In this document: positions 1,162 through 62,091 of the stretch, piece by piece
How positions within the stretch are numbered: position 1 is the first letter of the stretch
How the letters are laid out: each line of letters opens with the position of its first letter
Source of the DNA: Patescibacteria group bacterium
GTDB lineage: Bacteria; Patescibacteriota; Microgenomatia; UBA8517
DNA length: 64,000 bases
Direction of reading: 5' to 3'
Assembly: GCA_035291665.1 (NCBI GenBank)
Contig: DATDRP010000003.1
Span: forward strand, 84,549 to 148,548
Notes under the pieces: generated by a model
What the model was told of the DNA's origin: nothing
Seen by the model: only the letters and a program-made list of their open reading frames with translations
Databases searched by the model: none
Position numbers and translations under genes: made by a program

Positions 1162-1183
1162 TTAAATTCTTATATCCTCCCGC

Positions 1184-1222
1184 ACTTCTACTCTTCTACT
1201 CTTCTACTCTTCTACTCTTCTA
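1184..1222. repeat. Tandem octamer microsatellite (CTTCTACT)x4.5 just upstream of the PA14 protein start
   Basis: Direct reading: cttctactcttctactcttctactcttctactct. Confidence 0.85.
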
Positions 1223-1810
1223 CTCTATTTTAGTATACAAAAAAATCGACCCATTTGTCTTGCTTCCTCAAGGAACAGGTAGAGCGCCTGCCCAACACTC
1301 CACCTGTCCCCTCAAGAAACAAGGCTATTTTGAGTCGATTTAGCTTCTCAAAACGGACTTGATTTTTTAAAAAAAAGTTTTACGCTTTTTATTAAGCGCT
1401 TACAAAAATTAGCGCTTACCTTTAACTTATCTTGCGACAAGCCTGTCCTGCAAGATAATTAAGAAACTTAAAGAGCATTGCTACTCGTGTTTATTCCCCT
1501 TACCCGGGAACATCGATGGTGATGCTCTTTATTTGTTGCTGGCCTCTCTTTAATACAAACAGCCAGCAATCCTCCGGCAATCGCACCTCGAGGCATATTC
1601 GAATAGAATCCAAAGCCGAGTGGTAAGATGCGGAGGATTCACCTCCATGTCATTTTTAAAGTTCTTACACTTGATATTTTACTATGTAGGGAGGTAATGT
1701 CAAATCCCATAATGTATTATTAATTAATTTGTCGCTTTCCTATAGTTTTCGAGTATTGATAAACCGCCTTAATCTTCGCCTATTCTATGGAGAAAAATAT
1801 AAATGTGGAT

Positions 1811-4092: not shown

Positions 4093-4227
4093 TAGTGCAG
4101 TCCCGCACTTTCGCCCCTTCGACGCAAACACGCAATATTTGGGAGAAGGTAAGAATAGTGCTGGAACCAGCGCGGGCTCTCATATGAGCACTGCTGGCAT
4201 ATAAACTTTGAACTTGATCTGGCCATG
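4093..4227 (-). other. Upstream mimic ORF: divergent, synonymously recoded copy of radA codons 1-21 (MARSSSKFICQQCSYESPRWF) that reads through element A and stops 17 nt before the genuine radA ATG
   Basis: Reverse-complement translation from ATG (4224-4226) gives MARSSSKFICQQCSYESPRWFQHYSYLLPNIACLRRRGESAGLH*; radA itself begins MAKSSSIYVCQQCSYESYRWF; first 19 nt after the ATG are identical, then codons differ synonymously (CAA CAA TGT TCT TAC GAA vs CAG CAG TGC TCA TAT GAG). Confidence 0.6.
4098..4170. ncRNA. Copy A of a conserved ~75-nt structured element (core CCCCTTCGACGCAAACACGYARTATTTGGGAGAAGGYAAGAAYAGTGC), 22 nt upstream of the radA ATG; strand of action undetermined
   Basis: Near-identical cores at 4098-4170, 18847-18917 and 61652-61722; enclosing stems; compensatory change CCTTC/GAAGG (A,B) vs CCATC/GATGG (C). 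Confidence 0.55.
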
Positions 4228-7479: not shown

Positions 7480-7750
7480 AGACAGGATAAGTACTGGTAT
7501 AAGTTTAAGTCTATGAAATCGGTTGTAGGAAATGGGAAATGAGTTGTGAGTGGTGGGAACTGGAAAATGGAGATAAGTAAGTAGGTTGTAGGGGGTAGGA
7601 TGTTAGGAATAAAGGAATTAAGTAATTTAGTAAATTAGAGAAAAGTAGTAAGTTGTAAGAGGTAAGTTGTAGGTTGTAGGAGGTAGAAAATGGGAAATGA
7701 GTAATGGGAAGTGGGATGTGAGTAGTGAGTGATGGGTAATTAGTCTAAAG
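7480..7750. repeat. C-depleted (plus strand) / G-depleted (minus strand) low-complexity tract with GTAGGTTGTAGG-type motifs, upstream of rpsA on its coding strand
   Basis: ~270 nt almost devoid of C; motif GTTGTAGGTTGTAGGAGGTAG recurs. Confidence 0.8.
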
Positions 7751-8422: not shown

Positions 8423-8530
8423 AATATCTTCAAAATTGATAATTGTCCATTCAAACCATTTTAAATGTTAAATTGCAACTTTTTATTGCTCTTTATAAAT
8501 TCAAGGAGAAAGGACGACTCTCGTGCTTAG

Positions 8531-8669
8531 CGCGAGAATTTCTAATTTACAATTTAAAATTTCTATTGAATTTCAAATGACTTAATGTACTTAATTAAAA
8601 AATTGGGTCAATGAAAATTGAATAAAAGTTAAAAACTACATAACTAAAAATTCTTGTGCTATGCACAAG
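8531..8669. repeat. AT-rich ~140-nt repeat family, copy 1 (3' trailer of 23S); begins GCGCGAGAAT, ends in hairpin CTTGTGC-N3-GCACAAG
   Basis: Near-identical copies at 8531-8669, 11201-11340, 12953-13090; a related AT-rich insert sits in the 16S (27885-28010). Confidence 0.8.
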
Positions 8670-8790
8670 AGAAAAATGTCTTATTGACTGATTCGGTTAA
8701 GGTTAGCTTAACTCCTTACGGAGCTTCCACATCCTTCCGAACAACCTGGTATTCTTCCAGGAGTCTATAATGAACCCTAATCTTGGAGGG

Positions 8791-8823
<33 letters not shown>

Positions 8824-8954
8824 CTTAGGAATATAGCTACCCGGCTTTGCGGCTGACGCCACAACCGGCACACCAGAGATTCCTCCAGCCTGGTCCTCTC
8901 GTACTGAGGCCAGCTCTCCTCAAGGTTCTACGATTCCACCGGATAGAGTCCGAC

Positions 8955-9342
8955 ATATAGTATGTCAATACTTCGCATGTTTTTATTTCCGAACGATTTT
9001 TCGGAACTCACGATCGCTCGTGAGATCAGACTATATCTTGTACGTTCAGTTTAAATGAACGTACTCTGACGTATAGTCGTTGAGGATTCTACGTTCAGTT
9101 TAAATGAACGTAGCCTTTCCTGCTGATTGTCCGCACCTGTTGCTTTTTTACCCTGAACGACCAATATAAGTCGAACGGGTAGCACAGGATACAACGGAGT
9201 TCCCAGCAAATAGTCAAATTTATACTCGACTGGTCGAGTCCTATAATGATAACAGTTCTCTTTACTGATTGTTCAAATCAGAAGGTTCAAAAACGTGTTA
9301 TAGGAAGACAGCTCATGTCATTCCGATATGTTATCGAAATCA
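8955..9342 (-). mobile_element. ~390-nt ORF-less insertion at the 23S L2593-equivalent site (GACAGU|UCGG); candidate group I intron
   Basis: Flanking exon sequences align to E. coli 2585-2600 with ~390 extra nt between; 5' exon ends in U and the insert ends in G; contains modular hairpins (ACGTTCAGTTTAAATGAACGT twice). Confidence 0.45.
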
Positions 9343-9862
9343 ACTGTCTTACGACGTTCTGAACCCAGCTCACGTACCGCTTTAATGGGCGAACAGACCA
9401 ACCCTTGGCACCTTCTTCAGCGCCAGGATGCGATGAGCCGACATCGAGGTAGCGATCCGCGCCGTCGCTATGGACGCTCGGGCGCGACTACTCTGTTATC
9501 CCCGGGGTAGCTTTTATCCGTTAAGCTCCGTGCCTACCATGAGGCAATCGGAGGATCACTAAAACCTGCTTTCGCACTAGTTCGAGCCGTCGCTCTCACT
9601 ATCAAGCTGGCTTCTGCTTTTGCACATTGAAGTACGATGTCCATCCGTACTAAGCCAACCTTTGTGCCCTTGCGTTACTCTTTGGCAAGGTACCGCCCCA
9701 GTAAAACTGCCCACCTGACACTTTTCCTTCCGCCGTATCCAGGCGGAATAGGTAAGCCTCACATTTTCAAAAGAGTGGTATTACACTGTTCCCCGCAAAA
9801 TAAATCTGCGGGGTCCCACCTATTCTACACAATTCAAAAATATGAAAAGCAATGTCAAGCTG

Positions 9863-9893
<31 letters not shown>

Positions 9894-10025
9894 GTGGAAT
9901 TAGGCCGCGTCTTCACAGCCACCGCAATTTCGCCGAGTAGAGGCTCGAGACAGTTATTAACTCGTGACGCCGTTCATGCAGGTCGGAACTTACCCGACAA
10001 GGGGCTTCGCTCAAAACCTTATGAA

Positions 10026-10705
10026 AATCATCGTTGAGTTTTGGACTATATCTTCTCCGATTTGATCGGAGTTCGACGTATAGTCTCTGAGGATTCTAAA
10101 ACAGACTGGTTTCTTTTTTTTCTTGTATTCATTGTCTCGATAATATTGATAATTTTATTTATTCCATTTTTTGTTAAATGAGTTTTATTTTTCATTAACA
10201 AAAGTATTTTAGAAAATTTACTGAAATCATCTTTTTTAGAAGTTTTCAACTTATTTTCCTCAAAAAAAGGAATAATTATATCAAAAAGTTCCTTCTGAGA
10301 CTTCACACAATATCGAAAAAGATCTTCTCTGTGATTATCGTGTCTTCTGTTGACCGAAATTCTACCACATTTAAAAAATTTCATTACCGTAAATAATACG
10401 TTCTTACTTTTTTCTCCTTGCGATAAAACAAACTCGGGCATAATCTGATAACCCAGAGATGTAGTTGGATTCTTATGTAGGGTTACTGTAAAACAACCCT
10501 CTCCGTCTACAAATCCAACAATCCAGCCAATAAATTTTAGTCTTTCCTGCTGATTATCTTTACTGAATGCTTTTTCACTTGGTATCATCTACAGTATGAT
10601 GTTACCTTAGTAGCTTCAGATTAACAAGATTTTCCAGCATATAGTCGAATTTTACTACGGCAGTTTTGTATTGCCCTTACCGTAGAACAGTTATAGTTAC
10701 TGCTG
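10026..10705 (-). mobile_element. Group I intron at the 23S L1917-equivalent site carrying a LAGLIDADG homing endonuclease ORF
   Basis: Exon junction ...CUAUAACUGUUCUA | intron | AAGGUUUUGAGCGAAGCCCCUUGUCGGG corresponds to E. coli CCUA|AGGUAGCGAAAUUCCUUGUCGGG; ORF inside on the same strand. Confidence 0.7.
10046..10588 (-). CDS. LAGLIDADG-family homing endonuclease (single-motif type)
   Basis: IGWIVGFVDGEGCF matches the LAGLIDADG motif; located inside the rRNA intron. Confidence 0.85.
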   Translation of the reverse strand: MIPSEKAFSKDNQQERLKFIGWIVGFVDGEGCFTVTLHKNPTTSLGYQIMPEFVLSQGEKSKNVLFTVMKFFKCGRISVNRRHDNHREDLFRYCVKSQKELFDIIIPFFEENKLKTSKKDDFSKFSKILLLMKNKTHLTKNGINKIINIIETMNTRKKRNQSVLESSETIRRTPIKSEKI

Positions 10706-11200
10706 CCGTTTACCGGAGCTTTGCTTCACCCCATAAGATATCGCTTGCGCGATACCAAACAGGGATCCGTTTAACTTACCGGCACTGGGCAGGCGTCAGC
10801 CCGTATACTTCGCTTTTCAGCTTTGCACGGACCTGTGTTTTTGATAAACAGTCGGTTAATAAACTTTCGCTGCAACCCCGATTAAATCGGGGCAACCCAT
10901 CTCCCTAAGTTACGGGTAGTTTTTTTGCCGAATTCCTTAAGCCTCTTTCTCTCGCTCGCCTTACTATACTCTAGTAACCCACCTGTGTTGGTTTTGGTAC
11001 GGCTTACCTTGAATCTCACTGCGAATCTTTTCTCGTAGACAGAAATGTATGGAATAGTCCAAGTAAACTTAAACTCTGCATAACTCATCGATTAATCGTT
11101 TCAGCGGATTTCCCAACTGATACTATCTATAAGCTTGCACCCCACTTCACGAAGGGGCTCCAATTTTCCTATCCAGTCAATCCCCAGTTACTCATACGCT

Positions 11201-11340
11201 GCGCGAGAATTTTTAATTTACAATTTAAAATTTATATTGAATTTCTAATGACTTAATGTACTTAATTAAAAAATCGGGTCAATGAAAATTGAATAAAAAT
11301 TAAAAACTACATAACTAAAAATTCTTGTGCAACGTACAAG
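11201..11340. repeat. AT-rich repeat family copy 2, inside the 23S (E. coli ~1500 region)
   Basis: Aligned to copies 1 and 3; terminal hairpin CTTGTGCAACGTACAAG. Confidence 0.8.
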
Positions 11341-11707
11341 TTTGGCGATTCAAGACAAATACAGGAATTTTAACCTGTCATCCATCGACTACCCCCGCCC
11401 CTTTTTTGACAATAGCTTACGGAAATTTCATCTTTGGAAGGCGAAACGCCTCAAATTGTGTTGAGCCGTTTTCGGCTTCCGGGGTACGAAAATCCATTAA
11501 ACATTATCGAAAAAGGGGCGGGGCTTGCCTTAGGTGCCGACTAACCCGTCGAGGACGAACCTCGCGACGGAATCCTTGGGTATTTGGCGGACCAGATTCT
11601 CACTGGTCTAGTGCGCTACTCATACCGGCATTCTCACTCCCATTCGCTCCACCCAACTTTACAGTTGAACTTCACAGCAAATGGAACGCTCCCCTACCAC
11701 ACTCGCT

Positions 11708-11872
11708 CGCAGTTCGAGAAAATTCAAATGATAAATATCAAATGACAAATCAATCACAAATAACAAAACTTTAAAAGAGAAAATAATTTAAATTCTTTTG
11801 TCCTCTTTTTAATTTTGAGTTTGAATTGAATTTTGTGATTTGAGTTTTGAATTTCCTTGTACTGCGAACAAG
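11708..11872. repeat. Hairpin intervening-sequence family copy a, at 23S helix 45 (GCAGUACAAGG...CGAACUGCG arms)
   Basis: ~165-nt long inverted repeat inserted where E. coli has helix 45 (GCGGCAGCGACGC...); near-identical copy at 12499-12663. Confidence 0.75.
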
Positions 11873-11936
11873 CATCTCTGGCTTCGGTATTATCTTTAAT
11901 CCTCGATTAATTTTCGGCGCCTACTTCCATCGACCA

Positions 11937-11993
<57 letters not shown>

Positions 11994-12498
11994 TTATGGA
12001 AATAAACTTCCTTTGAAACTTAAGATAAATTTAGAGACCTTAGCCGAAAGTCTGGGTTGTTTCCCTTTACCCGCATCAGCTTAGCCCGATGCGAGTGTCT
12101 AGCGTGATAATGTACACCGTTATTCGGAGTTTGGTTGAGTGAACTTGGTTGCCCTCGTCCACCCATTCAGTAGCTCTACCATCGGTAACACCTTACACGC
12201 CACGGTCCCTATAGACCTTTCGGGGAGAACCAGCTATCTCCAGGTTCGTTTGGCATATTACCCCTATCCACAAGTCATCCCAAGTCATTGCAACGACAAC
12301 GGGTTCGGGCCTCCTCCCGACTTTCGTCGGGATTCACCCTGCTCATGGCTAGATCACCTGGTTTCGGGTCTTATCTCACATTCAAAATCGCGCTATTAAC
12401 ACTTGGTTTCCCTACGCCTCCCCCCGCAAAGCGGGGTTAGACAAGAATATAAGATAAACTCGCCGGTTCATTCTTCAATAGGCACGATATCACTCGCA

Positions 12499-12663
12499 CG
12501 CAGTTCGAGAAAATTCAAATGATAAATATCAAATGACAAATCAATCACAAATAACAAAACTTTAAAAGAGAAAATAATTTAAATTCTTTTGTCCTCTTTG
12601 TAATTTTGAGTTTGAATTGAATTTTGTGATTTGAGTTTTGAATTTCCTTGTACTACGTACAAG
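12499..12663. repeat. Hairpin intervening-sequence family copy b, at 23S helix 25
   Basis: Inserted after GAACCUGAAAC...CUUGUACGUAGUACAAGG, the helix-25 position; ~95% identical to copy a. Confidence 0.75.
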
Positions 12664-12728
12664 CTCTATCGGTTTGTCCGCAAACAGTTTCAGGTTCTAT
12701 TTCACTGGGCGTCCCGCCCTTCTTTTCG

Positions 12729-12760
<32 letters not shown>

Positions 12761-12952
12761 TTCTGCTTATATTTAGCCTTGGAAGATGGTTCTCCCAGAT
12801 TCCCACGAAGATGTCGATCGTGGTACTTAGGAAATCCCTAGAGTCATTTTTCATTTCGTATACAAGACTATCACTTTCTATGGTCGGCAATTCCATGCCG
12901 TTCTACTATGAAAAATGATCCCACATTGGGCTCCTGCAACCCCCTGCACTCT

Positions 12953-13090
12953 GCGCGAGAATTTCTAATTTACAATTTAAAATTTCTAATTAATTTCTAA
13001 TGACTTAATGTACTTAATAAAAAATCGGGTCAATGAAAATTGAATAAAAATTAAAAACTACATAACTAAAAATTCTTGTGCAAAGCACAA
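12953..13090. repeat. AT-rich repeat family copy 3, inside 23S domain I (after GUAGCGGCGAGCGAA)
   Basis: Aligned to copies 1 and 2. Confidence 0.8.
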
Positions 13091-13101
13091 GGTTTAGGCT
13101 T

Positions 13102-13132
<31 letters not shown>

Positions 13133-13810
13133 ATTTCCCCCGCTGAGCGGGGGTTGTTTTCTTTTCCTTCGGGTACTTAGATGTTTCAGTTTCCCGAGTC
13201 TCCTCCGAAAGAGCTATGTGCTTCGCACAAGGTGGCCTACAGCTATTTGACTACAGACTACAGGAAAAACTGTGACTGTAGACTGTTGACTGTAAGCAAA
13301 CTTATGCGAAGCGCTTTTACTCTTTGGTCCTCCGTTATGAGACGGAGTGGGTTTCCCCATTCGGACACCGCCGGGTCACAGGATCGTGGCTCCTATCCGA
13401 CGATTATCGCAGCCTTGCGCGTCCTTCTTAGGTAAGCAAAACCAAGGCATCCACTGTTCGCGTTAGTAAAGACATTTACCTCGTGTATAAACACGAGGAT
13501 TTTGGCCTTTCTCCTTAAATTTTTAAAGAGCAAATTAACTTGTTAATTTGCGATGTATCCGCCAACAAACGCCCCTTAAGTCGTGTTCGAACAGAACTAA
13601 AAGACTTAAGGTAAGTTGCGGCGGAAAAGAGCACTGTTTCAAAAAAGAAACAGCTTCTATCTCTCGCAAATCTGTTAATGTTCATCTCTTTAGTATCTGA
13701 AAGATGGTGACTCGCGGTTTAAAATATTATCCAAACCGCCAATCACCATTTCTCAAATGTCAAAGTCTTCCTTATACTCTTCTACTCTCACGCTCTTACA
13801 CTCTAAATTA

Positions 13811-13883
13811 AGTGGACCTGGGCGGGGTCGAACCGCCTACCTCGTCATTGCAAATGACGCGTTCAGCCAGTTAAACTTCAGGC
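13811..13883 (-). tRNA. tRNA-Ala (anticodon UGC) with G3:U70
   Basis: Reverse complement GGGCCUG...CAUUUGCAAUG...GGUUCGACCCCGCC...CAGGUCC-A; anticodon loop UUUGCAA; G3·U70 identity pair. Confidence 0.85.
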
Positions 13884-14044
13884 CCAAATTCGTATTTGCC
13901 GGTCCTGACTATTAAATTGTTAAAGTAAGGTACAGTTACCCTCCGAAACTTATCTCTCGGCTTCTCTTTCTATTCGAACACGCCTCGAGATGCGCTATCT
14001 GGAGGGTTGTTGCACTACATATAATTTAATTTGGAATGTGCAAC

Positions 14045-14248: not shown

Positions 14249-14971
14249 TTATTTATCTTGATAAGTACGAAGCCATGCTTCATAACGTTCATCACTATCA
14301 ATGGCTTTTAACTTCGCGAGTTCGTCCTCTCTTCTTTTCGGCTCAATGGCATTGGATATGGACCTTCCGATTATTTTGTAAAAGAGAGAATTTACCTTGA
14401 ACATATTTTGGATTTTTGCAAGAATTTCAACCCTATACCATCTTTTTGTAAAATTCGATGCATGAGTAGCTTCCAGGGGTACACTTTTACCAGCACGGTG
14501 CGGAATGGTTACACCTACGTTTTCACCATGATATCCCAACCTCCTGTGTCTCTCTGCTACTGTTGCCGTTGTATCATCACCAGGATCCTTTTCCATATTT
14601 TGGAGAATTATATCAACTACTATGGGTATGTTCAACAGTCTATGGTTTTGTTACGGCCTTTGTTTTCTTGGTCTTACACCCGGATACCATAAGTTGTGAT
14701 CTCTCACCCCAACCGGTTCCGGTGTGCACCGGTTAAATGCCGGACAACTCAAATCTTGACAATATGCATTTATCACACTATTTGCTTCTTTCTGAGCCCT
14801 TTGCGAATTTGATAATCCATATTGTTTGTATGCAATCAGATTTATTCCTCTATGATGGGGTTGCACCAAATTCGTTAATTTACCATTATTAACCACCCTT
14901 CCGCCTCGTTTGAGAATTTTACATACTTCTTCAAACCCCCAAGATTTTAACCGCTTTTCCGTATCAGGCAT
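14249..14971 (-). pseudogene. Two adjacent out-of-frame ORFs (106 aa + 128 aa) of unknown function, possibly one frameshifted gene
   Basis: 14651..14971 and 14249..14635 abut in different frames; Cys motif CQDLSCPAFNRC; no recognisable family. Confidence 0.25.
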
Positions 14972-15091
14972 ATGAAACTGTAAATGCAGTATATCAATAT
15001 AGAAGATTTTAACATGTAATTTTGATTGTTAATTAGCCTTATTTGTGGTAAATTAGTGGTTGTTCCGAAATTCTTTTTCTATGATTTATTG

Positions 15092-15150
15092 GGCGCGTGG
15101 CTCAGTGTCCGATCAAGTCGGCGACATGTCTAAGAGCGCGTTCCTGATGA
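15092..15150 (+). pseudogene. tRNA 5' half-fragment X (GGGCGCGUGGCUCAGUG, 23-nt insert in the D-loop, anticodon arm CGUUC-CUGAUGA); outer shell of a nested tRNA locus
   Basis: Identical first 17 nt to tRNA-Ile at 15242; matching 3' half at 15421-15470 (same CGTTC stem, ...CGCGCCC-U-CCA). Confidence 0.5.
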
Positions 15151-15164
15151 CAGAAATTATTTTG

Positions 15165-15203
15165 GGCTGCTAGTTCATTGGTAGAACGCTTTATTGATGA
15201 CGC
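15165..15203 (+). pseudogene. tRNA 5' half-fragment Y (GGGCUGC-UA-GUUC-AUUGGUA-GAAC-G-CUUUA-UUGAUGA)
   Basis: Acceptor strand GGGCTGC pairs with GCAGCCC of the 3' fragment at 15340-15372. Confidence 0.45.
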
Positions 15204-15241
15204 AAATAATAATTTGCGACATATTGAAAATTGAAAACGAG

Positions 15242-15313
15242 GGCGCGTGGCTCAGTGGTAGAGCGCCTTCCTGATAAGAAGGAGGTCCTAGGTTCGATCC
15301 CTAGCGCGCCCAC
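15242..15313 (+). tRNA. tRNA-Ile (anticodon GAU), intact, 72 nt
   Basis: GGGCGCG-UG-GCUC-AGUGGUA-GAGC-G-CCUUC-CUGAUAA-GAAGG-AGGUC-CUAGG-UUCGAUC-CCUAG-CGCGCCC-A. Confidence 0.85.
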
Positions 15314-15339
15314 AAAGTTCTCAATTTTCACTATAAGAA

Positions 15340-15372
15340 AGAAGTGCTAGGTTCGATTCCTAGGCAGCCCAC
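15340..15372 (+). pseudogene. tRNA 3' half-fragment Y (T-arm CUAGG-UUCGAUU-CCUAG + GCAGCCC-A)
   Basis: Complements fragment Y 5' acceptor strand. Confidence 0.45.
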
Positions 15373-15420
15373 AAGTTTCTGACATATCGAACGTTTTTGA
15401 AGCTGAAAGCTTCAAAGTCC

Positions 15421-15470
15421 GTTCGTTATAAGAACGAGGTCCAAGGTTCGATCCCTAGCGCGCCCTCCAC
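15421..15470 (+). pseudogene. tRNA 3' half-fragment X (anticodon arm CGUUC-GUUAUAA-GAACG, T-arm, CGCGCCC-U-CCA with encoded CCA)
   Basis: Nearly identical to the 3' half of tRNA-Ile; together with 15092-15139 would give a complete Ile-like tRNA (anticodon UAU). Confidence 0.5.
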
Positions 15471-15479
15471 AGATTACTT

Positions 15480-15650
15480 ACAACTAAAAACTTAAGGCTA
15501 ATTACACCCACTACTCACTTCTCACTACCCACATCTCACTACTCATTTCCTATCTCTTACCGCCTACATCCTACAATCAATCGCCTACTCCCACTTCCCA
15601 CTACTCACTTCTCATTACTTAATATCTTAAAATCCTTCATATATAATGAA
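15480..15650. repeat. G-depleted low-complexity tract (CTACTCAC / CCTACAAC motifs) upstream of the ATPase gene
   Basis: 170 nt with essentially no G on the plus strand. Confidence 0.8.
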
Positions 15651-15653
15651 GTT

Positions 15654-17771
15654 ATGCTTAAAACATTTGTTTTGAAAGTTCCAAGAGAGAATGTCGAAAC
15701 CCCCGAAGCAACACAAACTTTTTTATCAGCGCTTACCACGCTTAATCCGACAAGTACTCTTGAAAAATTACTTATAAAAAACCAAAAAGCTCTTGCTCTC
15801 GAAATTGTGCTTCAAAACCAGCAAATTACATTCAGGGTGGTTTGTGATTCTGAATTTGAACATCTGGTTACCACACAAATCCAGTCAAACTATCCGCTTT
15901 GTGTCATTCAGAATGCTGAAAATGAAATTTCCTTTGAAGACCTGACTCTGACAAAGGTTAACTTGAGGTTTGGTAATTTTTACCCGATTCAAACTTATGC
16001 TTCTTTCCGGGATTTGGATCCAATGTCGTCATTTTTATCGCTTCTTTCAAAGGCAACACCGAATGACGTCGTAATCATTCAATACGCTCTTGAGGCAGCT
16101 GGATCTTCCTGGCAGGCGAAAGGTAAAAACTTTGCTCTTTCAGGAGCCAAAAAAGCTGATGGGTCATTTGGTCCCAGACCCGACCAAAATGTCGTTAACG
16201 AAAAGATATCATTCCAAGGATTCAAAGTATCCATTCGGATAGCATCTAATTCGAAAACAACTCAAAAAGAACTTGCATCCGTGTATGATATTTTTAACCG
16301 CCCCGACGGCAATAGTTTTCGATCTTCATCCGTCATCAGGCTTTTTTTCAAAAAAGAAATGGCAAAATTCAAGAACCGGCTTTGCAGTGATTCTCAAATC
16401 CTTAACACTCCGGAGTTGGCAACGCTATGGCACTTGCCCGGTGAAAAAATAAAAGCCCCCTTAATTTCCTGGGGTTCAACAGTTTTATCAGAACCACCGG
16501 AAAATCTTCCGGTTGCAAAAATCATGTCCGATGAAGAAAAATCCCATGTCAACTTTTTTGCAAAAACACAGTTTAAGAATGAAGAGAGCATTTTCGGAAT
16601 CAAAGACAAGGATAGGCTTCGTCATGTCTGGACTGTCGGAAAAACCGGAACCGGAAAATCAACAATGATTGCCAACATGGCAATCGATGACATAAAAAAA
16701 GGGCGTGGAGTTGCGGTTATTGATCCGCACGGAGATCTTTGTGATGACATACTGGATTACATTCCCAGCTCCCGTATAAATGACACAATTTATTTCAATC
16801 CGGCTGACCGCGAATTTCCAATCGCACTCAATCCTCTTGAAGTAACAAATAAAGAAGAGGCGGAATTGGTTGTATCCGGACTGATGAGTATCTTTACCCG
16901 AGTATGGGCTAATGTTTGGTCTGCAAGAATGGAATATATTCTCCGTAACTCATTCATGACTTTGGCAGAAATCCCCGACTCGACGTTGGAGGACGTACTC
17001 CACTTGTTGGCGAATCAGACTTTCCGAAACAGAGTTCTTTCAAAAGTAAAAGACGACGCTATCGTAAAATTCTGGAAAGACGAGTTCGATCAAATGCCGG
17101 AAACATTACAAAAAGAAGCGATTGCACCAATCCAAAATAAAGTCGGACAATTTGTAACATCGCCTTTAATGAGAAGAATCCTTTCAAAACCAAAGTCCGC
17201 CATTTCGATTGACGACATCATGAATAACGGAAAAATATTTTTGGCCAATCTTTCCCAAGGCCGTCTCGGTGAAGACAACTCGGCGCTTCTGGGTGCAACA
17301 CTTATCACAAAAATTCAAGTTTCCGCAATGAGACGTGTGGACATTCCGAAAGATGACCGCCGGCCGTTTTACTTGTACGTTGATGAGTTTCAGAACTTCG
17401 CCACCGATTCATTCATCCGAATTCTATCAGAAGCAAGAAAATACGGATTGGCTCTGACTTTGGCTAATCAATATATGGCGCAAATTCCTCCCAACATACA
17501 AAAAGCAATTCTCGGAAACGCGGGAACTCTGGTTGCTTTCACAATCGGCGCAGAAGATGCCCAAATTGTACATCGGGAATTTGCCGAGGTGTTTTCGCAA
17601 AACGATTTGGTTAATTTGAAAAACTATCAAATTGCAGTGAAACTAATGGTCGATGCCCATTCAACCAGGCCCTTCTTTGCCTATACATTGCCTCTTCCCG
17701 CGCAGAGTAACCAAAACCGCCCCAAAGTGATTGCAGTTTCCCGGGAAAGGTGGGGAAAAAAATCGACGTAA
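15654..17771 (+). CDS. P-loop NTPase of the HerA/FtsK/VirB4 clade (DUF87-like), 705 aa, with ~300-aa N-terminal domain of unknown function
   Basis: VGKTGTGKST Walker A; AVIDPHGD (HerA/VirB4-like); LYVDEFQNF Walker B; no SD upstream. Confidence 0.6.
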   Translation: MLKTFVLKVPRENVETPEATQTFLSALTTLNPTSTLEKLLIKNQKALALEIVLQNQQITFRVVCDSEFEHLVTTQIQSNYPLCVIQNAENEISFEDLTLTKVNLRFGNFYPIQTYASFRDLDPMSSFLSLLSKATPNDVVIIQYALEAAGSSWQAKGKNFALSGAKKADGSFGPRPDQNVVNEKISFQGFKVSIRIASNSKTTQKELASVYDIFNRPDGNSFRSSSVIRLFFKKEMAKFKNRLCSDSQILNTPELATLWHLPGEKIKAPLISWGSTVLSEPPENLPVAKIMSDEEKSHVNFFAKTQFKNEESIFGIKDKDRLRHVWTVGKTGTGKSTMIANMAIDDIKKGRGVAVIDPHGDLCDDILDYIPSSRINDTIYFNPADREFPIALNPLEVTNKEEAELVVSGLMSIFTRVWANVWSARMEYILRNSFMTLAEIPDSTLEDVLHLLANQTFRNRVLSKVKDDAIVKFWKDEFDQMPETLQKEAIAPIQNKVGQFVTSPLMRRILSKPKSAISIDDIMNNGKIFLANLSQGRLGEDNSALLGATLITKIQVSAMRRVDIPKDDRRPFYLYVDEFQNFATDSFIRILSEARKYGLALTLANQYMAQIPPNIQKAILGNAGTLVAFTIGAEDAQIVHREFAEVFSQNDLVNLKNYQIAVKLMVDAHSTRPFFAYTLPLPAQSNQNRPKVIAVSRERWGKKST

Positions 17772-17779
17772 GTTGATTT

Positions 17780-17930
17780 TTTTGATAAAAGTACATATTT
17801 CTCTATTTTCTTTATTCTAAACTACTTAATTACTTAAACCCCGTATTTCCCAATACTCACATCCCACTTCCCACAACTCAATTTCTATCTCTTACCCTAC
17901 AACCTACTTCTTACAACCTAACATCGTTTT
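17780..17930. repeat. G-depleted low-complexity tract (CCCTACAACCTAC motifs) followed by its C-depleted mirror at 17990-18050
   Basis: Composition and motif reading. Confidence 0.8.
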
Positions 17931-18046
17931 CACCGGTACATTTAGACCTATAATAACGAACACTATTCTCCCCCATTAGCTTGTGAAAAGAATGTGAAAG
18001 ATGAATAGTTGTAGGTTGTACGATGTAGGAGGTAGGATAAGATATA

Positions 18047-18697: not shown

Positions 18698-18747
18698 ATT
18701 GCTCTTTTATAAAAATAGTGATAACTCAATAACCCTCCGATAAATCT

Positions 18748-18805
18748 TGGCACGAGGCGTATACGAATAGTATTGAAAAGCCGAATGCTAAAAACAGTAG
18801 GGTGT
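18748..18805. promoter_or_regulatory. Conserved ~55-nt element TTGGCACGAGGCGTRTAYGAATARTAYTGAAAARCC (second copy at 54631-54690); promoter-like
   Basis: ~75% identity between the two copies; the 54631 copy lies 20-60 nt upstream of the start of the minus-strand gene 54261..54599. Confidence 0.35.
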
Positions 18806-18846: not shown

Positions 18847-18917
18847 TGCATTGCGACAGTCCCGCACTTTTGCCCCTTCGACGCAAACAGGTAGTATTTG
18901 GGAGAAGGCAAGAACAG
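18847..18917. ncRNA. Copy B of the structured ~75-nt element (no downstream minus-strand gene; carries a 41-codon ORF MFFNLYSSPGTVLAFSQILPVCVEGAKVRDCRNAKIQRVLK)
   Basis: Core alignment with copies A and C; outer stem GTCCCGCACT / AGTGCCGGGAGAC. Confidence 0.5.
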
Positions 18918-20553
18918 TGCCGGGAGACGAGTAAAGATTGAAGAACATTTTCGCGATTAGTGAAAGGTAGCCAGTTGACCGCCTTGAGCGGATTTCAACT
19001 TGCTGCCTTCCACTGGTCACGAGGACCAGTGTCTTTTGTTTAAGACGAGGGGAAGCAGGAAGTAAGCAGTAAGAAGTAAGGAATAAGCAATAGCGCATAT
19101 CACCTACAACCTACCGCTTACGACTTACAACCCATTTGTTCTTTAACAACTTTGCTGTTTACCACGTTCAATTTATTTGAGCGTGGATATAATTAAGGAA
19201 AAAGGAACCCTATTATATTTTTTCGATCGCGAGGACTACGGTTCTCGCGTCACGGAAGTAGTATAACGGGGTAAGAAAAGGGAATCCGCAATATCTTAAA
19301 TAATAAGGTATGTGCGGGATACCGGGGTTAGATAGTTTTTTAAAAAGACTTCTAACAGGACATGGGGTTAAATGATATATATAGATAGTCTCCTTTTTTC
19401 AAATGTCCCCTATTAATGGAGGGAACAGAGACCGTAATTATTTGCGGTTTCTTTTCCCTTCATTTTTTTGGGGCTAAAGTCCTTGGAGTTTTTTTGTTTT
19501 GGTTTAAGGCTTCGCCTTAGGCCACGTTTTTTGAATGCTGAAACATGCGATATAGTCGATTGAAGACTACGGTCTTTGTCGATACAAAAATATCAAAATG
19601 TTTTACCAGCTGTAATTCTAAATCCTTAAAAATTTAGAAGTTGGATAACCTTCAAAAAACAAAAACGAAAACAGAACCAATATGAAATTTATATTGGCGA
19701 AGTCCCGTACCGAATTTATTCTGGTGCGTGGAAAAACTTCAAAAGATTGCATCGCAAAGGATTATTATCCTGAGCGAAGACAAGTTTGACTTGTTGCAGT
19801 CGAAGGACTTCCTTTATTTCGGTTAGCCTGCTTTGCGAGCACTTCTCCTTTAAAAAGAGATTTATCAACTGAAACCAAAGGCACCCAGGATGGCGATAAA
19901 ATTCCTACTTGTAGAAGTTCGCACCCGCTTCGCGACACGCATTTCCGAGTTCTTTTCTTCCGTAAACCCGAGAAGAATCGAAATCTTATGCGCGATAAGA
20001 AGAAAAAGTAAATCGAGCAATCGATTAAAAGGCCTTCTTTTTATGACAAGGAAAACTGCGGGGGTATAAGACCTATCAAAATCTTATATTCAATCCGTAC
20101 CAGTCATTTGGGATTGTGACCCAACAAGGCAACAACTCAGGGATCAATCGCAACCAAGCTCAGCTTGGTAATCCTGTTTTGTATCAAAACCACTACGGTT
20201 AGATACGAAGAGATCTCGCATTTATACATGTTAAATGTGTAGAAATCGGGAAAAGCGAAAATCCAGCTCAGCTGGAGTACTTATCTTAAGTACGCGGAAA
20301 CTGGACAAGCGTTTTTTGTTTTTGCTTTGAAGAGACTTCTTCTTTTCTTCTTTATAAACAGAGAGTTTCCGGTGCACCCAACAAAGGTGTCATCCGCAAG
20401 CTACGAAGCTTGATTATAGAAACTGATATGTAGGATATCGGAGAGAAAGAAAAGAATTGGAGAAGTAGGAACGGAAGACGGCATTCAGGAGATGCGGAAA
20501 AATTTTATCAATCAGGTGTAGTTTTACCTGAATTCAGAAAAAAGGAGAATGTT

Positions 20554-27181: not shown

Positions 27182-28822
<1,641 letters not shown>

Positions 28823-29112
28823 GTGACGGTTCTAATTAATAAAAATTAGATCCATCTAATCACTCCCAGTCATATTTTAATTTTCGAATCAGTTGTTAAA
28901 GTGCGAGATCTTAACAAACAAAAGAAGCCGCCCAGACGGCGGCTTTGTAGCCTTAAAGATTAATCTTCGTCTGGTCAACCGCTTCTCATCTTTTCCTTTC
29001 ACAAACCAACAAATTGATTTGTAATGTGTATTATATCAAATTTTGCAAATTGTTCAACGAATCGGTTTGTGGGATTGGAAATGAACCGGGGGTATGTTAA
29101 CATTGCGCCGCT

Positions 29113-36350: not shown

Positions 36351-36474
36351 AACAAGCAATTATAACAGATTTAGGGAATCTAAATTTGATTGACACGAAT
36401 AAAAATGAATCAAATCTGATATGTCATCCTCCTTGGAGGGGTAACACCGATTCAGACTCAAGGGGGGATGTCAT
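36351..36474 (-). promoter_or_regulatory. TIR promoter-cassette element T1 (ATGACATCCCCCC...GGAGGATGACAT + ATCAGATTTGATTCA... + TGTTATAAT), oriented toward tRNA-Gln
   Basis: Family of five; see finding. Extended -10 TGTTATAAT at 36358-36366 (minus strand). Confidence 0.55.
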
Positions 36475-37414: not shown

Positions 37415-37527
37415 ATGACATCCTCCACGGACTAAAGTCCGTGGTTTCCCATGAGGGAGGATGACATATCAAATTCAATTCCTCCACGTTCAGTTTACAT
37501 GAACGTGGTTTCCTTGAAATTGTTATG
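37415..37527 (+). promoter_or_regulatory. TIR promoter-cassette element T2; its last 3 nt are the ATG of the 37525 gene
   Basis: ATGACATCCTCC-[CACGGACTAAAGTCCGTG]-GTTTCCCATGAGGGAGGATGACAT-ATCAAATTCAATTCC-[CCACGTTCAGTTTACATGAACGTGG]-TTTCCTTGAAATTGTTATG. Confidence 0.6.
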
Positions 37528-51723: not shown

Positions 51724-51895
51724 ATGACATCCTCCCCGCTCTTGCTAGCGGGGTTTCCTCCAAAGGAGGATGACATATCAGAATTCAATTCCCTGCACCA
51801 TCCGGTGCAGGACCAAGTCCCATGCCGAATGGCATGGGGCATCCCCGATTGAATCGGAGTTTTCTTGAAGTCTGTTATAATTGAAAAAATTTATG
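51724..51895 (+). promoter_or_regulatory. TIR promoter-cassette element T3, ending TGTTATAAT-N12-ATG of the 51893 gene
   Basis: ATGACATCCTCC-[CCGCTCTTGCTAGCGG]-GGTTTCCTCCAAAGGAGGATGACAT-ATCAGAATTCAATTCC-[CTGCACCATCCGGTGCAG]...[CCCATGCCGAATGGCATGGG]...TCTGTTATAATTG. Confidence 0.6.
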
Positions 51896-54702: not shown

Positions 54703-55668
54703 CTATAGTAATTCTATCAGAAAAAATACAATGTACACTCCAAGAAGAATCCCCGCTTCCCATCTGTCCAATCTCTTTTTTGTTCTTATAAAATAAGAAA
54801 AAAGAAGATAAACAAAAATAAACGTAAACCCGGGAATAATATACCTCATAGGTATTAATGATTTAACCGGATTAATTAATACCGATAAGCCAACTATCAA
54901 TGTAGTATTAGCAGCAATTGACCCCAAAAGATTCCCGATAAACATTTCCGGTTCTTTGTCTTTCAATGATTCCAGAGAAAACGCAAATTCGGGTAAGGAT
55001 GTTCCTATTGCAAGGATAAATAGTCCGATTACGAAAATGGGTATGTTATTTTTTTCGGCTAATAGAGATGAAAACTTTACAATCGTGTCAGCTGAAAAAA
55101 GCATCAGAGTGATCCCGATTGTTACAGCTGCCAGATTTTTCCATTTCTCTTCGGCAAAATGTTCAACTTTTTTTATTAATTTAGTGAAGGTTAAGCCTTT
55201 TTGGTGCTCTTCTAAAGCTCTTTGATGATAATGTCTGAAAAAATTTAGAATGTAAAATATATATACCGAAATTAAAATAACACCGTCTATTCTGGATAAA
55301 TTTCCATCTACCAATAATATATAGGGTATTATTCCGCAAATAAAACCCATTCCGATCATTTTATGGGTTAAAGACTGGGAAATTACCACTCTTCCCGAAA
55401 TTAAAGCAGCCCCTGCTCCTATTAAGGCAATATTTGCAATATTGGATCCGAGTGTTACTCCCAAAGAAAGTCCCGGCTTCCCTTCAACGGCAGAGGTTAT
55501 ACCCACAATTAGTTCCGGAAGTGATGTTCCGATGGCAATAAGAACTGCAGAAAGCCCGACTAATCCAGTAGTCCCGGCTATCTTCTTAAGGGCGATAACC
55601 GCCATATCTGCAGATTTTATTAAGACTATAGAAAAAATAATTATTGATGCTGTTAATAAGTACGTCAT
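54703..55668 (-). CDS. Ca2+/cation antiporter-family (CaCA, YrbG-like) Na+/Ca2+ exchanger
   Basis: Two alpha-repeats GTSLPELIVGITSA / GNLLGSIAANTTLIVG. Confidence 0.8.
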   Translation of the reverse strand: MTYLLTASIIIFSIVLIKSADMAVIALKKIAGTTGLVGLSAVLIAIGTSLPELIVGITSAVEGKPGLSLGVTLGSNIANIALIGAGAALISGRVVISQSLTHKMIGMGFICGIIPYILLVDGNLSRIDGVILISVYIFYILNFFRHYHQRALEEHQKGLTFTKLIKKVEHFAEEKWKNLAAVTIGITLMLFSADTIVKFSSLLAEKNNIPIFVIGLFILAIGTSLPEFAFSLESLKDKEPEMFIGNLLGSIAANTTLIVGLSVLINPVKSLIPMRYIIPGFTFIFVYLLFSYFIRTKKRLDRWEAGILLGVYIVFFLIELL

Positions 55669-55801
55669 AACAATTTCAAGGAAACCCCGCCCAGGGCGGG
55701 GAGGTCTCCGACTCAGAGAGTCTCTGACTCGGAGAGATTTGAATTTGATATGTCATCCTCCCTCACGGGAAACCACGGACTTTAGTCCGTGGAGGATGTC
55801 A
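55666..55801 (-). promoter_or_regulatory. TIR promoter-cassette element T4; ends exactly at the ATG of the exchanger gene (GTTTCCTTGAAATTGTT-ATG)
   Basis: Reverse complement ATGACATCCTCC-[ACGGACTAAAGTCCGT]-GGTTTCCCGTGAGGGAGGATGACAT-ATCAAATTCAAATCTCTCCGAGTCAGAGACTCTCTGAGTCGG...CCCCGCCCTGGGCGGGGTTTCCTTGAAATTGTTATG. Confidence 0.6.
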
Positions 55802-55844
55802 TAATAATTACCCTTTAATGCTACCATAATAATTTTTAACAATT

Positions 55845-61931: not shown

Positions 61932-62091
61932 ATGACATCCTCCACTTTACTTATGTCCGTGGTCTCCCCTGAGGGAGGATGGTATACCGTGCCTGCCGGC
62001 AGGCAGGTCAGAGTTCAATTCTCTCCGAGTCAGAGACTCTCTGAGTCGGAGACCTCCCCGCCCAGGGCGGGGTTTCCTTGAAATTGTTATG
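61932..62091 (+). promoter_or_regulatory. TIR promoter-cassette element T5; ends in the ATG of the 62089 gene (GGGGTTTCCTTGAAATTGTT-ATG)
   Basis: ATGACATCCTCC...GAGGGAGGATGGTAT-[CCTGCCGGCAGG]-AGTTCAATTCTCT-[CCGAGTCAGAGACTCTCTGAGTCGG]-[CCCCGCCCAGGGCGGGG]-TTTCCTTGAAATTGTTATG. Confidence 0.6.

What the first reader, a model, noticed from the sequence alone, without database searches (positions are those of the whole stretch)
15092..15470. Russian-doll tRNA locus: intact tRNA-Ile(GAU) nested inside two concentric pairs of tRNA half-fragments
The order is 5' half X (15092-15150, identical first 17 nt to tRNA-Ile but with a 23-nt D-loop insert), 5' half Y (15165-15203), complete tRNA-Ile (15242-15313), 3' half Y (15340-15372, acceptor complementary to Y 5'), then 3' half X (15421-15470, CGCGCCC-U-CCA, complementary to X 5').

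X 5' and X 3' both carry the anticodon-stem pentamer CGTTC. Joining them at that repeat would give a complete Ile-like tRNA with anticodon UAU.

This is either successive insertions into the anticodon/D region of pre-existing tRNA genes, each insertion bringing its own tRNA, or unusually long tRNA introns containing tRNAs. Either is rare in bacteria. The HerA-ATPase island begins 180 bp downstream, so this may be the integration scar of that island.
Basis: seen in the sequence. Interest (0 to 1): 0.65.

Follow-up and report, generated by a model that had tools for sequence, protein, structure and literature searches.

The report
Nested tRNA-Ile genes built by insertions
One working isoleucine tRNA gene sits inside two older copies of the same gene, each split in its anticodon loop by a small hairpin-forming mobile element carrying a replacement tRNA; related uncultured bacteria share this undescribed arrangement.

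Summary
The order is X 5' half, Y 5' half, intact tRNA-Ile(GAU), Y 3' half, X 3' half. The locus is 100% identical in three independent assemblies.

Homologous nests occur in at least six other Woesebacteria-like (CPR) lineages. Two relatives have the plain, un-nested gene.

Each "intron" is one defined two-hairpin element: [AT]GAC-hairpin-GAC-ATAT-helix(cargo)-helix-TT[AT]. Both helices covary. Five more copies without a tRNA lie between genes in this window, always at AT|RA sites.

The innermost tRNA is canonical in every locus. Outer copies range from perfect to badly decayed, or have lost a half.

Best reading (about 0.55): repeated DNA-level insertion of a small non-autonomous element carrying a tRNA-Ile into the CTGAT|AA anticodon-loop site of the resident gene. 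Only the innermost gene works.

The apparent UAU anticodon and the CGTTC repeat are by-products of the element's second hairpin. The "island scar" idea fails, because the downstream ATPase gene is a conserved neighbour in relatives.

True splicing of the outer tRNAs is not excluded (about 0.15). The outer exons are unexpectedly well conserved. No transposase was found. I found no published description.

The parts
15044..15054 (+). Promoter-like extended -10 (TGTGGTAAATT) upstream of the outermost 5' half
   Evidence: The same TGGTAAATT or TGATAAATT box lies upstream of the outermost 5' half in L008, L033, L036 and L040. The consensus scan, which needs a -35, did not call it. Its function is inferred.
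15091..15148 (+). X 5' half: outermost, oldest tRNA-Ile copy, ending ...CCTGAT
   Evidence: The first 17 nt are identical to the inner tRNA. tRNA-Ile profile hit. Sequence checked.
15108..15130 (+). 23-nt hairpin insert in the D-loop of X
   Evidence: A 22/22 identical copy lies in L033 next to tRNA-Ala. A homologous, covarying insert sits at the same D-loop position of the outer 5' half in L033.
15149..15427 (+). X-level two-hairpin element (GAC...GTT). Hairpin 1 arms are 15149-15158 and 15374-15383, with the whole Y unit in its loop. Hairpin 2 is 15384-15427.
   Evidence: Fold helices. Its boundaries and motifs match the other copies. Covariation counts.
15164..15198 (+). Y 5' half: middle tRNA-Ile copy, ending ...TTGAT
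   Evidence: Profile hit E = 3e-5. Intact Y-type tRNA-Ile(GAU) genes exist in other metagenomes. It is 35/35 identical to the Y 5' half of L008.
15199..15332 (+). Y-level two-hairpin element. Hairpin 1 is 15199-15220. The second helix has arms 15221-15238 and 15317-15334 and encloses the working tRNA.
   Evidence: Fold. Hairpin scan. Covariation.
15241..15312 (+). Intact tRNA-Ile(GAU), the only canonical copy
   Evidence: ARAGORN. Rfam tRNA 72.8 bits. All 21 of 21 stem pairs form.
15333..15371 (+). Y 3' half (ATAAG...GCAGCCCA)
   Evidence: It is 39/39 identical to L008. The acceptor stem is 7/7 complementary to the Y 5' half and the anticodon stem is 4/5.
15384..15427 (+). Second hairpin of the X-level element (ATAT-CGAACG...CGTTCG-TT). 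It is the source of the 'CGTTC repeat' and of the false UAU anticodon.
   Evidence: It has the same AUAU/UUAU base with a U.U mismatch as the other copies.
15428..15469 (+). X 3' half (ATAAG...CGCGCCC-T) plus CCA
   Evidence: The T stem is 4/5 paired. The discriminator is T, where every intact copy has A (sequence).
37415..37526 (+). Intergenic copy 'a' of the same two-hairpin element, without a tRNA
   Evidence: fold z = -7.3; I2: 97% to copy c.
51724..51878 (+). Intergenic copy 'b'
   Evidence: (D7).
55667..55802 (-). Intergenic copy 'c'
   Evidence: (I1, I2).
36362..36474 (-). Intergenic copy 'd', upstream of tRNA-Gln
   Evidence: (D12, I6).
61932..62090 (+). Intergenic copy 'e'. Its first hairpin is partly decayed.
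   Evidence: (D7, I1).

Best explanation
**What it is.** The locus holds one functional tRNA-Ile(GAU) gene (15241-15312) buried inside two older tRNA-Ile genes.

**How it arose (inferred).** Each older gene was cut in its anticodon loop at CTG-AT|AA by DNA-level insertion of a small non-coding two-hairpin mobile element. Its plan is [AT]GAC-stem-loop-stem-GAC-ATAT-stem-(cargo)-stem-TT[AT]. One of its loops carried a replacement tRNA-Ile gene.

Because the cargo restores the function the insertion destroys, the insertion is tolerated and cannot easily be lost. The new tRNA has the same anticodon loop, so it is the next target. Repeats of this cycle give the Russian doll.

**How it is expressed (inferred).** The stack is transcribed from the old promoter upstream of the outermost 5' half. 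Ordinary tRNA end-processing releases only the innermost tRNA. The outer halves serve as leader and trailer that fold back on each other, and they decay slowly.

**Shown:** the nest, its recurrence, the element's anatomy and copies, and the decay gradient.

**Inferred:** the order of events, mobility in trans, transcription and processing, and the non-function of X and Y.
For: 1. **Real and reproducible.** The ENA and JGI assemblies match the locus at 100%, and a partial Logan contig matches where it overlaps.
2. **Recurs in relatives.** Homologous nests occur in L008, L033/34, L035 (partial), L036-39, L040 and L041-43. Single-level nests occur in L007 and L021, and L017 keeps only an outer 5' half. 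L009 and L016 hold partial or interrupted copies cut by contig ends. The un-nested state with the same neighbouring genes is seen in L026 and L032.
3. **Decay gradient.** The innermost copy has 21/21 stem pairs in all 8 loci tabulated. Outer copies range from 21/21 (L008 X', L036, L021) to acceptor stems of 2-4/7 (L040, L041, L007). Some have lost a half (L033 X'', L017) or have unequal numbers of halves (L036: two 5' halves, one 3' half). Window X has a T-stem mismatch, a D-loop insert and discriminator T (sequence).
4. **A defined unit.** Insert boundaries coincide with the ends of a discrete element that has five further copies in intergenic DNA of this window. Copies a and c, and c and e, are 97% identical over 70-79 nt. 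The hairpin motif occurs 6 times against 0.66 in shuffles.
5. **Common target.** All 7 insertion sites in the window read AT|RA with AT on both sides.
6. **Structure under constraint.** Both helices covary. Hairpin 1: 97.7% of cells paired against 75.8% in shuffles, with 19 double-change cells. Helix 2: 96.0% against 77.1%, with 21 double-change cells. No shuffle in 500 reached either.
7. **Native promoter retained.** The outermost 5' half keeps the conserved TGGTAAATT box seen in relatives.
8. **Not a group I intron.** No core is detected, although the same library finds one in the 23S gene.
Against: - No transposase or recombinase was found in any ORF scanned in the 64-kb window. Mobility would have to be supplied in trans.
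- How a tRNA gene first became cargo in a hairpin loop is unexplained.
- The outer exons are far better conserved than expected for dead DNA. The Y halves are 74/74 identical between the window and L008, although the 23S genes are only 82-92% identical. The X' exons of L008 equal the window's working tRNA, 72/72. The L036 and L007 5' halves are 34/34 identical.
- All five intergenic copies point the same way as the gene downstream. That would also suit a role in RNA.
- The L007 and L021 nests have different flanks and a 35/36 junction without AT duplication. More than one kind of insert must therefore exist.
- The helix arms used for the covariation counts were cut at fixed offsets from anchors that I chose by eye.
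Confidence: 0.55

Rival explanations
1. The outer genes are functional. The inserts are true RNA introns of a new, non-group-I kind, each housing a tRNA, and a protein enzyme plus a ligase removes them. One transcript would then yield up to three tRNA-Ile molecules.
For: - Outer exons are conserved far more than the spacers.
- The outer copies in L008 X', L036 and L021 form perfect cloverleaves once the inserts are removed.
- The insert helices covary, as expected for RNA structure.
- Removing the element plus one AT restores a correct anticodon loop.
- Element orientation always follows transcription.
- Patescibacteria are known to be rich in tRNA introns (PMC13011429).
Against: - Outer copies are clearly dispensable in many lineages: a missing 3' half (L033 X'', L017), non-complementary acceptor stems (L007, L040, L041), and two 5' halves for one 3' half (L036).
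- Window X has discriminator T, a T-stem mismatch and a D-loop insert.
- The same element sits in intergenic DNA, where no splicing is needed.
- I saw no bulge-helix-bulge geometry in the predicted fold, and no group I core is detected.
- No RNA ligase or splicing endonuclease domain was found in the window ORFs scanned.
- One tRNA-Ile(GAU) is enough for a cell.
Confidence: 0.15
2. The nest arose in place, with no tRNA-carrying mobile cassette. A tandem array of tRNA-Ile genes, each with its own hairpin leader and trailer, suffered deletions that left orphan halves. Unequal crossing-over between the repeated tRNA segments then multiplied the 5' and 3' modules.
For: - Unequal numbers of 5' and 3' halves in L036 and L041.
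- Direct repeats of 17-44 nt lie about 100 nt apart and are good substrates for such exchange.
- Leaders and trailers of all inner tRNAs are related...ATATCAAAATT...GCAT... before the tRNA and CAAA/CAAG after it.
- The whole nest is inverted in some lineages, so the locus does recombine.
Against: - The junctions are exact. No nucleotide of the outer tRNA is lost or duplicated beyond AT.
- The 5' junction lies within the same three positions of the anticodon loop (35/36 or 36/37) in about a dozen 5' modules.
- Insert ends coincide with those of an element that also exists at five unrelated intergenic sites.
- X, Y and the inner gene are different alleles whose acceptor stems differ by three compensated pairs and are nested in matching order. 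Intact Y-type genes exist on their own elsewhere.
Confidence: 0.15
3. The halves are attachment-site scars left by integration of the downstream type IV secretion/HerA-like island, or of other integrase-driven islands, into tRNA-Ile.
For: - tRNA genes are classic integration sites (established knowledge).
- Orphan 3' fragments that begin TAAGAA lie after intact tRNA-Ile genes in several metagenome loci.
Against: - No integrase domain in any ORF scanned.
- The halves lie 2-100 nt from the inner gene, with no cargo genes between them.
- 5' halves are present as well as 3' halves.
- The 705-aa DUF8128/TrwB gene is a conserved CPR gene next to tRNA-Ile in all relatives, nested or not, and on either strand.
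Confidence: 0.03
4. It is an assembly or chimera artefact among similar tRNA genes.
For: One Logan contig breaks inside the inner tRNA, as repeats tend to cause.
Against: - Identical sequence in independent ENA and JGI assemblies.
- Homologous but diverged nests in at least six other lineages from different samples.
Confidence: 0.01

Closest known systems
Bacterial MITE- or REPIN-type elements (for example Correia elements of Neisseria, and REPINs moved by RAYT transposases). The details of those families are from memory.
   Same: Short (about 110-160 nt), non-coding, multi-copy and intergenic. It forms strong hairpins, has a 2-nt repeat at both junctions, and its outward end recreates a -10-like box (TGTTAT+AAT).
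   Different: Here two hairpins have conserved bases with fixed mismatches (A.A and U.U) and freely covarying upper stems. The loops carry cargo, including a complete tRNA gene. The target includes the anticodon loop of that same tRNA. No cognate transposase has been identified.
IS200/IS605 family and its small non-autonomous derivatives. ISDra2 inserts 3' to TTGAT as single-stranded DNA and is recognised through subterminal hairpins (PMC2806898).
   Same: The insert lies immediately 3' of YTGAT in the tRNA loop. Ends are hairpins rather than inverted repeats. Removing the insert would restore the target exactly.
   Different: The intergenic copies follow YNAT, not one fixed pentamer. The left hairpin starts at the junction itself. 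No TnpA was found.
Genomic islands and phages that integrate into tRNA genes and carry a replacement segment of the tRNA (established knowledge)
   Same: The same principle applies: an insertion into an essential tRNA gene is tolerated because the insert brings the missing function.
   Different: Those elements replace only the 3' part through an integrase, leave one 3' scar, and carry many genes. Here a whole tRNA gene is supplied, both halves of the old gene remain, and there are no cargo genes.
Group I introns in anticodon loops of Patescibacteria tRNA genes, at position 35/36 (Nakagawa et al. 2026, PMC13011429)
   Same: Same phylum, same loop and nearly the same position. Both cause standard tools to miss the interrupted gene.
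   Different: No group I core is detected. The insert ends in U rather than G. Most of the insert is a tRNA.
Archaeal multi-intron, split and permuted tRNA genes processed at bulge-helix-bulge motifs, and intron transposition in Thermoproteales (from memory)
   Same: Inserts occur in the D, anticodon and T regions. tRNA halves must pair across long distances.
   Different: This organism is a bacterium. I saw no bulge-helix-bulge geometry. The inserts contain whole tRNAs. Many outer copies are decayed.

Membership tests
Group I intron | Conserved catalytic core detectable by the Rfam Intron_gpI model | tested here: not met
   No hit at E <= 10 in 14900-15700. The same library finds a group I intron in the 23S gene at 9007-9284.
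Group I intron | 5' exon ends in U and the intron ends in G | tested here: not met
   The 5' exon can end in U36, but every insert ends ...YNAT or ...TT, never G.
Archaeal/eukaryal-type protein-spliced tRNA intron | Bulge-helix-bulge motif (3-nt bulge, 4-bp helix, 3-nt bulge) at the exon-intron boundaries | tested here: not met
   Predicted folds give a three-way junction of the anticodon stem, hairpin 1 and the cargo helix, with no such motif. This rests on inspection only.
Archaeal/eukaryal-type protein-spliced tRNA intron | Splicing endonuclease and RNA ligase encoded in the genome | not testable with these tools
   No such domain in the window ORFs scanned. Only 64 kb of the genome is available.
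tRNA-targeting integrative island (attachment-site scar) | Integrase gene, and an island bounded by a direct repeat of the tRNA 3' segment | tested here: not met
   No integrase domain found. Halves lie 2-100 nt apart without genes between them. The neighbouring DUF8128/TrwB gene is conserved synteny.
MITE/REPIN-like non-autonomous element | Short, non-coding, dispersed copies with high mutual similarity | tested here: met
   Five intergenic copies of 112-159 nt plus two in the nest. Pairs are 97% identical over 70-79 nt.
MITE/REPIN-like non-autonomous element | Terminal or subterminal hairpin potential maintained in evolution | tested here: met
   Covariation in both helices. DNA fold z = -7.3 for copy a.
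MITE/REPIN-like non-autonomous element | Short repeat of the target at both junctions, and a target preference | tested here: met
   AT on both sides and AT|RA at all 7 sites in the window. The same holds in L008, L036 and L041. It does not hold in L007 and L021.
MITE/REPIN-like non-autonomous element | Filled and empty sites among relatives | tested here: inconclusive
   Un-nested tRNA-Ile in L026 and L032. L044 lacks copy 'a' before the same SpoU start codon, but its whole upstream region differs, so it is not a clean empty site.
MITE/REPIN-like non-autonomous element | A cognate transposase somewhere in the genome | not testable with these tools
   No transposase domain in the window ORFs scanned. 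The rest of the genome is not available.
IS200/IS605-derived element | Insertion 3' of one fixed 4-5-nt target, and TnpA-type subterminal hairpins at both ends | tested here: inconclusive
   YTGAT precedes the insert in the tRNA, but ATTAT, ACTAT, GCTAT or ACCAT precede it elsewhere. Hairpin spacing differs from what I recall for IS608 (memory). No TnpA found.

The most novel reading that the evidence does not exclude
The two-hairpin units are a new class of bacterial intervening sequence that is removed precisely from RNA by a protein enzyme and religated. X, Y and the inner gene would then all give working tRNAs, and the same unit would be cut out of mRNA leaders. That would be enzyme-catalysed tRNA splicing in Bacteria, with tRNAs housed inside tRNA introns.
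Probability: 0.12. Interest if true: 0.95.

Novelty: new variant of a known kind. Interest (0 to 1): 0.72.

Why it matters
**A selfish route to permanence.** If the main reading holds, this is a small mobile element that hits an essential single-copy tRNA gene and survives by carrying a spare copy of that gene. The element becomes indispensable, and the same target is set up again. That explains a layered fossil record of earlier tRNA-Ile alleles at one locus across a whole clade of CPR bacteria.

**Annotation.** Standard tools report only the innermost gene. They could miscall the halves, or read a false tRNA-Ile(UAU).

**A new repeat family.** It identifies a structured repeat in Woesebacteria that sits at promoters and start codons.

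**If the minority reading holds.** It would be the first protein-dependent tRNA splicing in Bacteria.

Tried and rejected
- **Viral contig scan** for the 3'-half pattern: nothing found.
- **Genome-collection scan:** only unrelated tRNAs, and tRNA-Ile(UAU) genes with the same acceptor stem in other CPR.
- **Hammerhead ribozyme.** CUGAUGA forms at the 5' junction, but the hairpin is followed by ACAU rather than GAA. The intergenic copies lack the C and U. Rejected.
- **C/D-box or kink-turn.** UGAUGA...CUGA occurs in X only. Y and the relatives have no CUGA, and the best register pairs CUG normally. The weak Rfam snoRNA hits are this coincidence.
- **TTGACA in the hairpin as a -35 box.** No -10 at the right spacing in any copy. 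Rejected.
- **Bulge-helix-bulge geometry:** not found.
- **Integrase, transposase, RNA ligase.** None among about 45 ORFs scanned. A GIY-YIG nuclease lies next to tRNA-Ser, with no evident link.
- **SpoU locus of a relative as a clean empty site.** The coding part aligns but the upstream region is unrelated.
- **Rfam on the intergenic copies.** Only a sub-threshold HgcC match: 26.8 bits against a gathering score of 50.
- **Literature.** Searches for nested or split tRNAs in CPR found only the group I intron paper.
Full report
**Context**

The window comes from a CPR (Patescibacteria) bacterium close to Woesebacteria.
- It has a 4.8-kb 23S rRNA gene (8672-13477, - strand) containing a group I intron and a LAGLIDADG gene.
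- It also has 5S rRNA, tRNA-Ala (13812-13885, -) and an unlinked 16S rRNA gene (27182-28823, -).
- The best homologues of the neighbouring 705-aa protein are named Woesebacteria.

On the + strand the order is:
- X 5' half, 15091-15148, with a 23-nt D-loop insert
- Y 5' half, 15164-15198
- an intact tRNA-Ile(GAU), 15241-15312
- Y 3' half, 15333-15371
- X 3' half, 15428-15466, then CCA

Only the inner gene is called by ARAGORN and reaches Rfam's threshold (72.8 bits). X 3' scores 19 bits.

The repeats are far beyond chance. The strand folds with the three acceptor stems nested, z = -5.4.

The locus is 100% identical in ENA and JGI assemblies. A Logan contig that starts at window 15260 matches its overlap at 100%. 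It is not an artefact.

**It is not unique**

I found relatives in two ways: a metagenome scan for the shared 3'-half pattern, and look-ups anchored on neighbouring proteins. A tRNA-Ile profile then located the halves.

| Locus | What it shows |
|---|---|
| L008 | X' > Y > another tRNA-Ile, followed by tRNA-Ala and 23S |
| L033/L034 | Neighbouring protein 77% identical. X'' 5' half with a homologous D-loop insert > Y'' > inner gene. No X'' 3' half was found. |
| L035 | Partial nest |
| L036-39 | Two 5' halves but only one 3' half |
| L040 | Decayed outer copy |
| L041-43 | Two 5' pieces and two 3' halves |
| L007, L021 | Single-level nests |
| L017 | Intact gene with an outer 5' half; the outer 3' half is decayed |
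| L009, L016 | Partial or interrupted copies cut by contig ends |
| L026, L032 | Plain tRNA-Ile in the same gene neighbourhood (the un-inserted state) |

Intact Y-type and X-type tRNA-Ile(GAU) genes exist on their own in other metagenomes.

**Anatomy of the inserts**

Every insert in the window, L008, L033, L036 and L041 follows one plan:
- The 5' exon ends YTGAT.
- Next comes GAC, a variable stem-loop, then GAC again. This is hairpin 1. Its base is A-U, U-A, G-C, then an A.A mismatch, then C-G.
- Then comes ATAT and a second helix. Its base is A-U, U-A, R-Y, then a U.N mismatch (U.U or U.C).
- The second helix ends TT, CT or CC, followed by AT-AAG of the 3' exon.

The replacement tRNA normally lies in the loop of the second helix. 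In the window's X level, the Y unit lies in the loop of hairpin 1 instead, and the second helix is a plain hairpin, ATAT-CGAACG...CGTTCG-TT at 15384-15427.

- The second CGTTC is an arm of that hairpin.
- The 'UAU anticodon' is the element's ...GTT end abutting AT-AA. L036 shows the same GTT|ATAAG junction next to a different tRNA, and the five intergenic copies end in the same GTTAT.

Both helices covary strongly across instances:

| Helix | Cells paired | Paired in shuffles | Double-change cells | Shuffles reaching this |
|---|---|---|---|---|
| Hairpin 1 | 97.7% | 75.8% | 19 | 0/500 |
| Second helix | 96.0% | 77.1% | 21 | 0/500 |

One caveat applies. I cut the arms at fixed offsets from the conserved anchors, and I chose those anchors by eye.

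**The same unit occurs away from tRNAs**

Five more copies lie in intergenic DNA of this window: 37415-37526, 51724-51878 and 61932-62090 on the + strand, and 55802-55667 and 36474-36362 on the - strand.
- They share the same ends, ATGAC...GACATATCA.A.TT......TGTTAT.
- Some pairs are 97% identical over 70-79 nt.
- The hairpin motif occurs 6 times, against 0.66 in shuffles.
- Copy 'a' folds with z = -7.3.

All seven sites in the window read AT|RA, with AT on both sides. They comprise two anticodon loops (CTG-AT-AAG), two -10 boxes (T-AT-AAT) and three start codons (AT-G). In each case, removing the unit plus one AT restores a sensible sequence.

A relative has the same SpoU start codon without the unit. 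Its upstream region is otherwise unrelated, so this is not a clean empty site.

**Which copies work**

A stem-pair table gives 21/21 for the innermost gene in all 8 loci tabulated. Outer copies vary:

| State of the outer copy | Loci |
|---|---|
| 21/21 stem pairs | L008 X', L036, L021 |
| One mismatch (20/21) | Window X and Y, L008 Y |
| Two mismatches | L033 Y'' |
| Acceptor stem only 2-4/7 | L040, L041, L007 |
| 3' half lost or unrecognisable | L033 X'', L017 |

Window X also has discriminator T, where all intact copies have A, and it has a D-loop insert. Outer copies have collected further hairpin inserts in the D region and the T loop.

This gradient, together with the unequal numbers of halves, argues that the outer copies are relics.

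**Mechanism proposed**

Steps 1 and 2 rest on anatomy and comparison. Steps 3 and 4 are inference.
1. A resident tRNA-Ile gene with its own TGGTAAATT promoter is hit at CTG-AT|AA by a two-hairpin element that carries a tRNA-Ile gene.
2. The cargo replaces the lost function and becomes the next target. Repeats of this cycle give X > Y > inner gene.
3. Transcription runs from the old promoter (15044-15054). tRNA end-processing releases the inner tRNA.
4. The element moves in trans. The route may be single-stranded DNA, as in IS200/IS605, where ISDra2 inserts 3' of TTGAT. Alternatively it may be a 2-bp crossover at AT.

No transposase was found in the window.

**What does not fit**

The outer exons are too well conserved for dead DNA:
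- The Y halves are 74/74 identical between the window and L008, whose 23S genes are 82-92% identical. The spacers have diverged and the inner tRNAs differ.
- The X' exons of L008 equal the window's working tRNA.
- The 5' halves of L036 and L007 are 34/34 identical.

Three explanations are possible, and none has been tested:
- Spread of the cassette between lineages by recombination, using the halves as homology arms. Selection would then act at the level of the element.
- Gene conversion.
- Real function of the outer copies, which is the splicing rival.

All five intergenic copies also point the same way as the gene downstream of them. That fits selection for the promoter-like end, but it would equally suit a role in RNA.

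**Other readings**
- **Island scar: rejected.** The DUF8128/TrwB gene is conserved next to tRNA-Ile in nested and un-nested relatives, on either strand. No integrase domain was found.
- **Origin in place by deletion and unequal exchange: partial at best.** It may add or remove modules, as in L036. It does not explain exact junctions that coincide with the ends of a dispersed element.

**Known or new**

Searches of the held literature found group I introns at 35/36 in Patescibacteria tRNA genes (PMC13011429). They found nothing on tRNA genes nested within tRNA genes.

I file this as a new variant of known kinds: a small non-autonomous element combined with 'replace what you break' targeting of a tRNA gene. 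I reserve about 0.12 for genuine protein-dependent tRNA splicing in Bacteria.

Noticed in passing
window 37415-37526(+), 51724-51878(+), 61932-62090(+), 55802-55667(-), 36474-36362(-): Five intergenic copies of a 112-159-nt two-hairpin repeat (ATGACATCCTCC...GGAGGATGACATATCA...TGTTAT). Each lies directly before a gene and points the same way as that gene. With the flank, its end makes TGTTATAAT, or it abuts the start codon. The copies contain smaller CCTCC-hairpin-GGTTTCC units.
   Followed up: partly
window 1169-1240, 7507-7737, 13771-13810, 15483-15620, 17851-17907, 18007-18042: Strand-biased low-complexity repeats such as CTTCTACT... and CACTACTCACTTCTC.... The stretch just after the nest is almost free of G. 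They flank the rRNA, tRNA and DUF8128 units. Their function is unknown.
   Followed up: no
window 8530-13477: The 23S rRNA gene is 4.8 kb. It has a group I intron (9007-9284), a LAGLIDADG gene (10046-10588) and internal repeats of 140 nt (8530, 11201, 12953) and 174 nt (11700, 12491). These suggest several related insertions.
   Followed up: no
window 47138-47720: A 165-aa ORF with a GIY-YIG nuclease domain ends inside the start of tRNA-Ser(UGA).
   Followed up: no
window 15109-15130 and L033 4399-4420: The hairpin inserted in the D-loop of X (CCGATCAAGTCGGCGACATGTC) is 22/22 identical to a sequence beside tRNA-Ala in a relative whose neighbouring protein is only 77% identical. It is either another small mobile hairpin or a relic of an inverted X 5' half.
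   Followed up: partly
window 15040-15480 compared with L008, L033, L036, L041 and L040: The whole nest is inverted in the window and in L040, where it shares a strand with the DUF8128 gene and diverges from tRNA-Ala. In L008, L033 and L036 it shares a strand with tRNA-Ala; L041 has the same divergent arrangement from the DUF8128 gene.
   Followed up: partly
window 4098-4164, 18857-18923, 61649-61715; 18733-18803, 54619-54689: Two further dispersed repeat families, of 67 nt and 71 nt, at 78-90% identity (D4 and D9).
   Followed up: no
L003, L004, L005: Other CPR genomes use the same acceptor stem (GGGCGCG/CGCGCCC) for a genuine tRNA-Ile(UAU). A UAU isoacceptor therefore exists in the phylum, even though the one apparent in this window is spurious.
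   Followed up: no
window 37402-37508 (-): Sub-threshold Rfam match of intergenic copy 'a' to the archaeal HgcC RNA family: 26.8 bits against a gathering score of 50, E = 7.5e-4.
   Followed up: no
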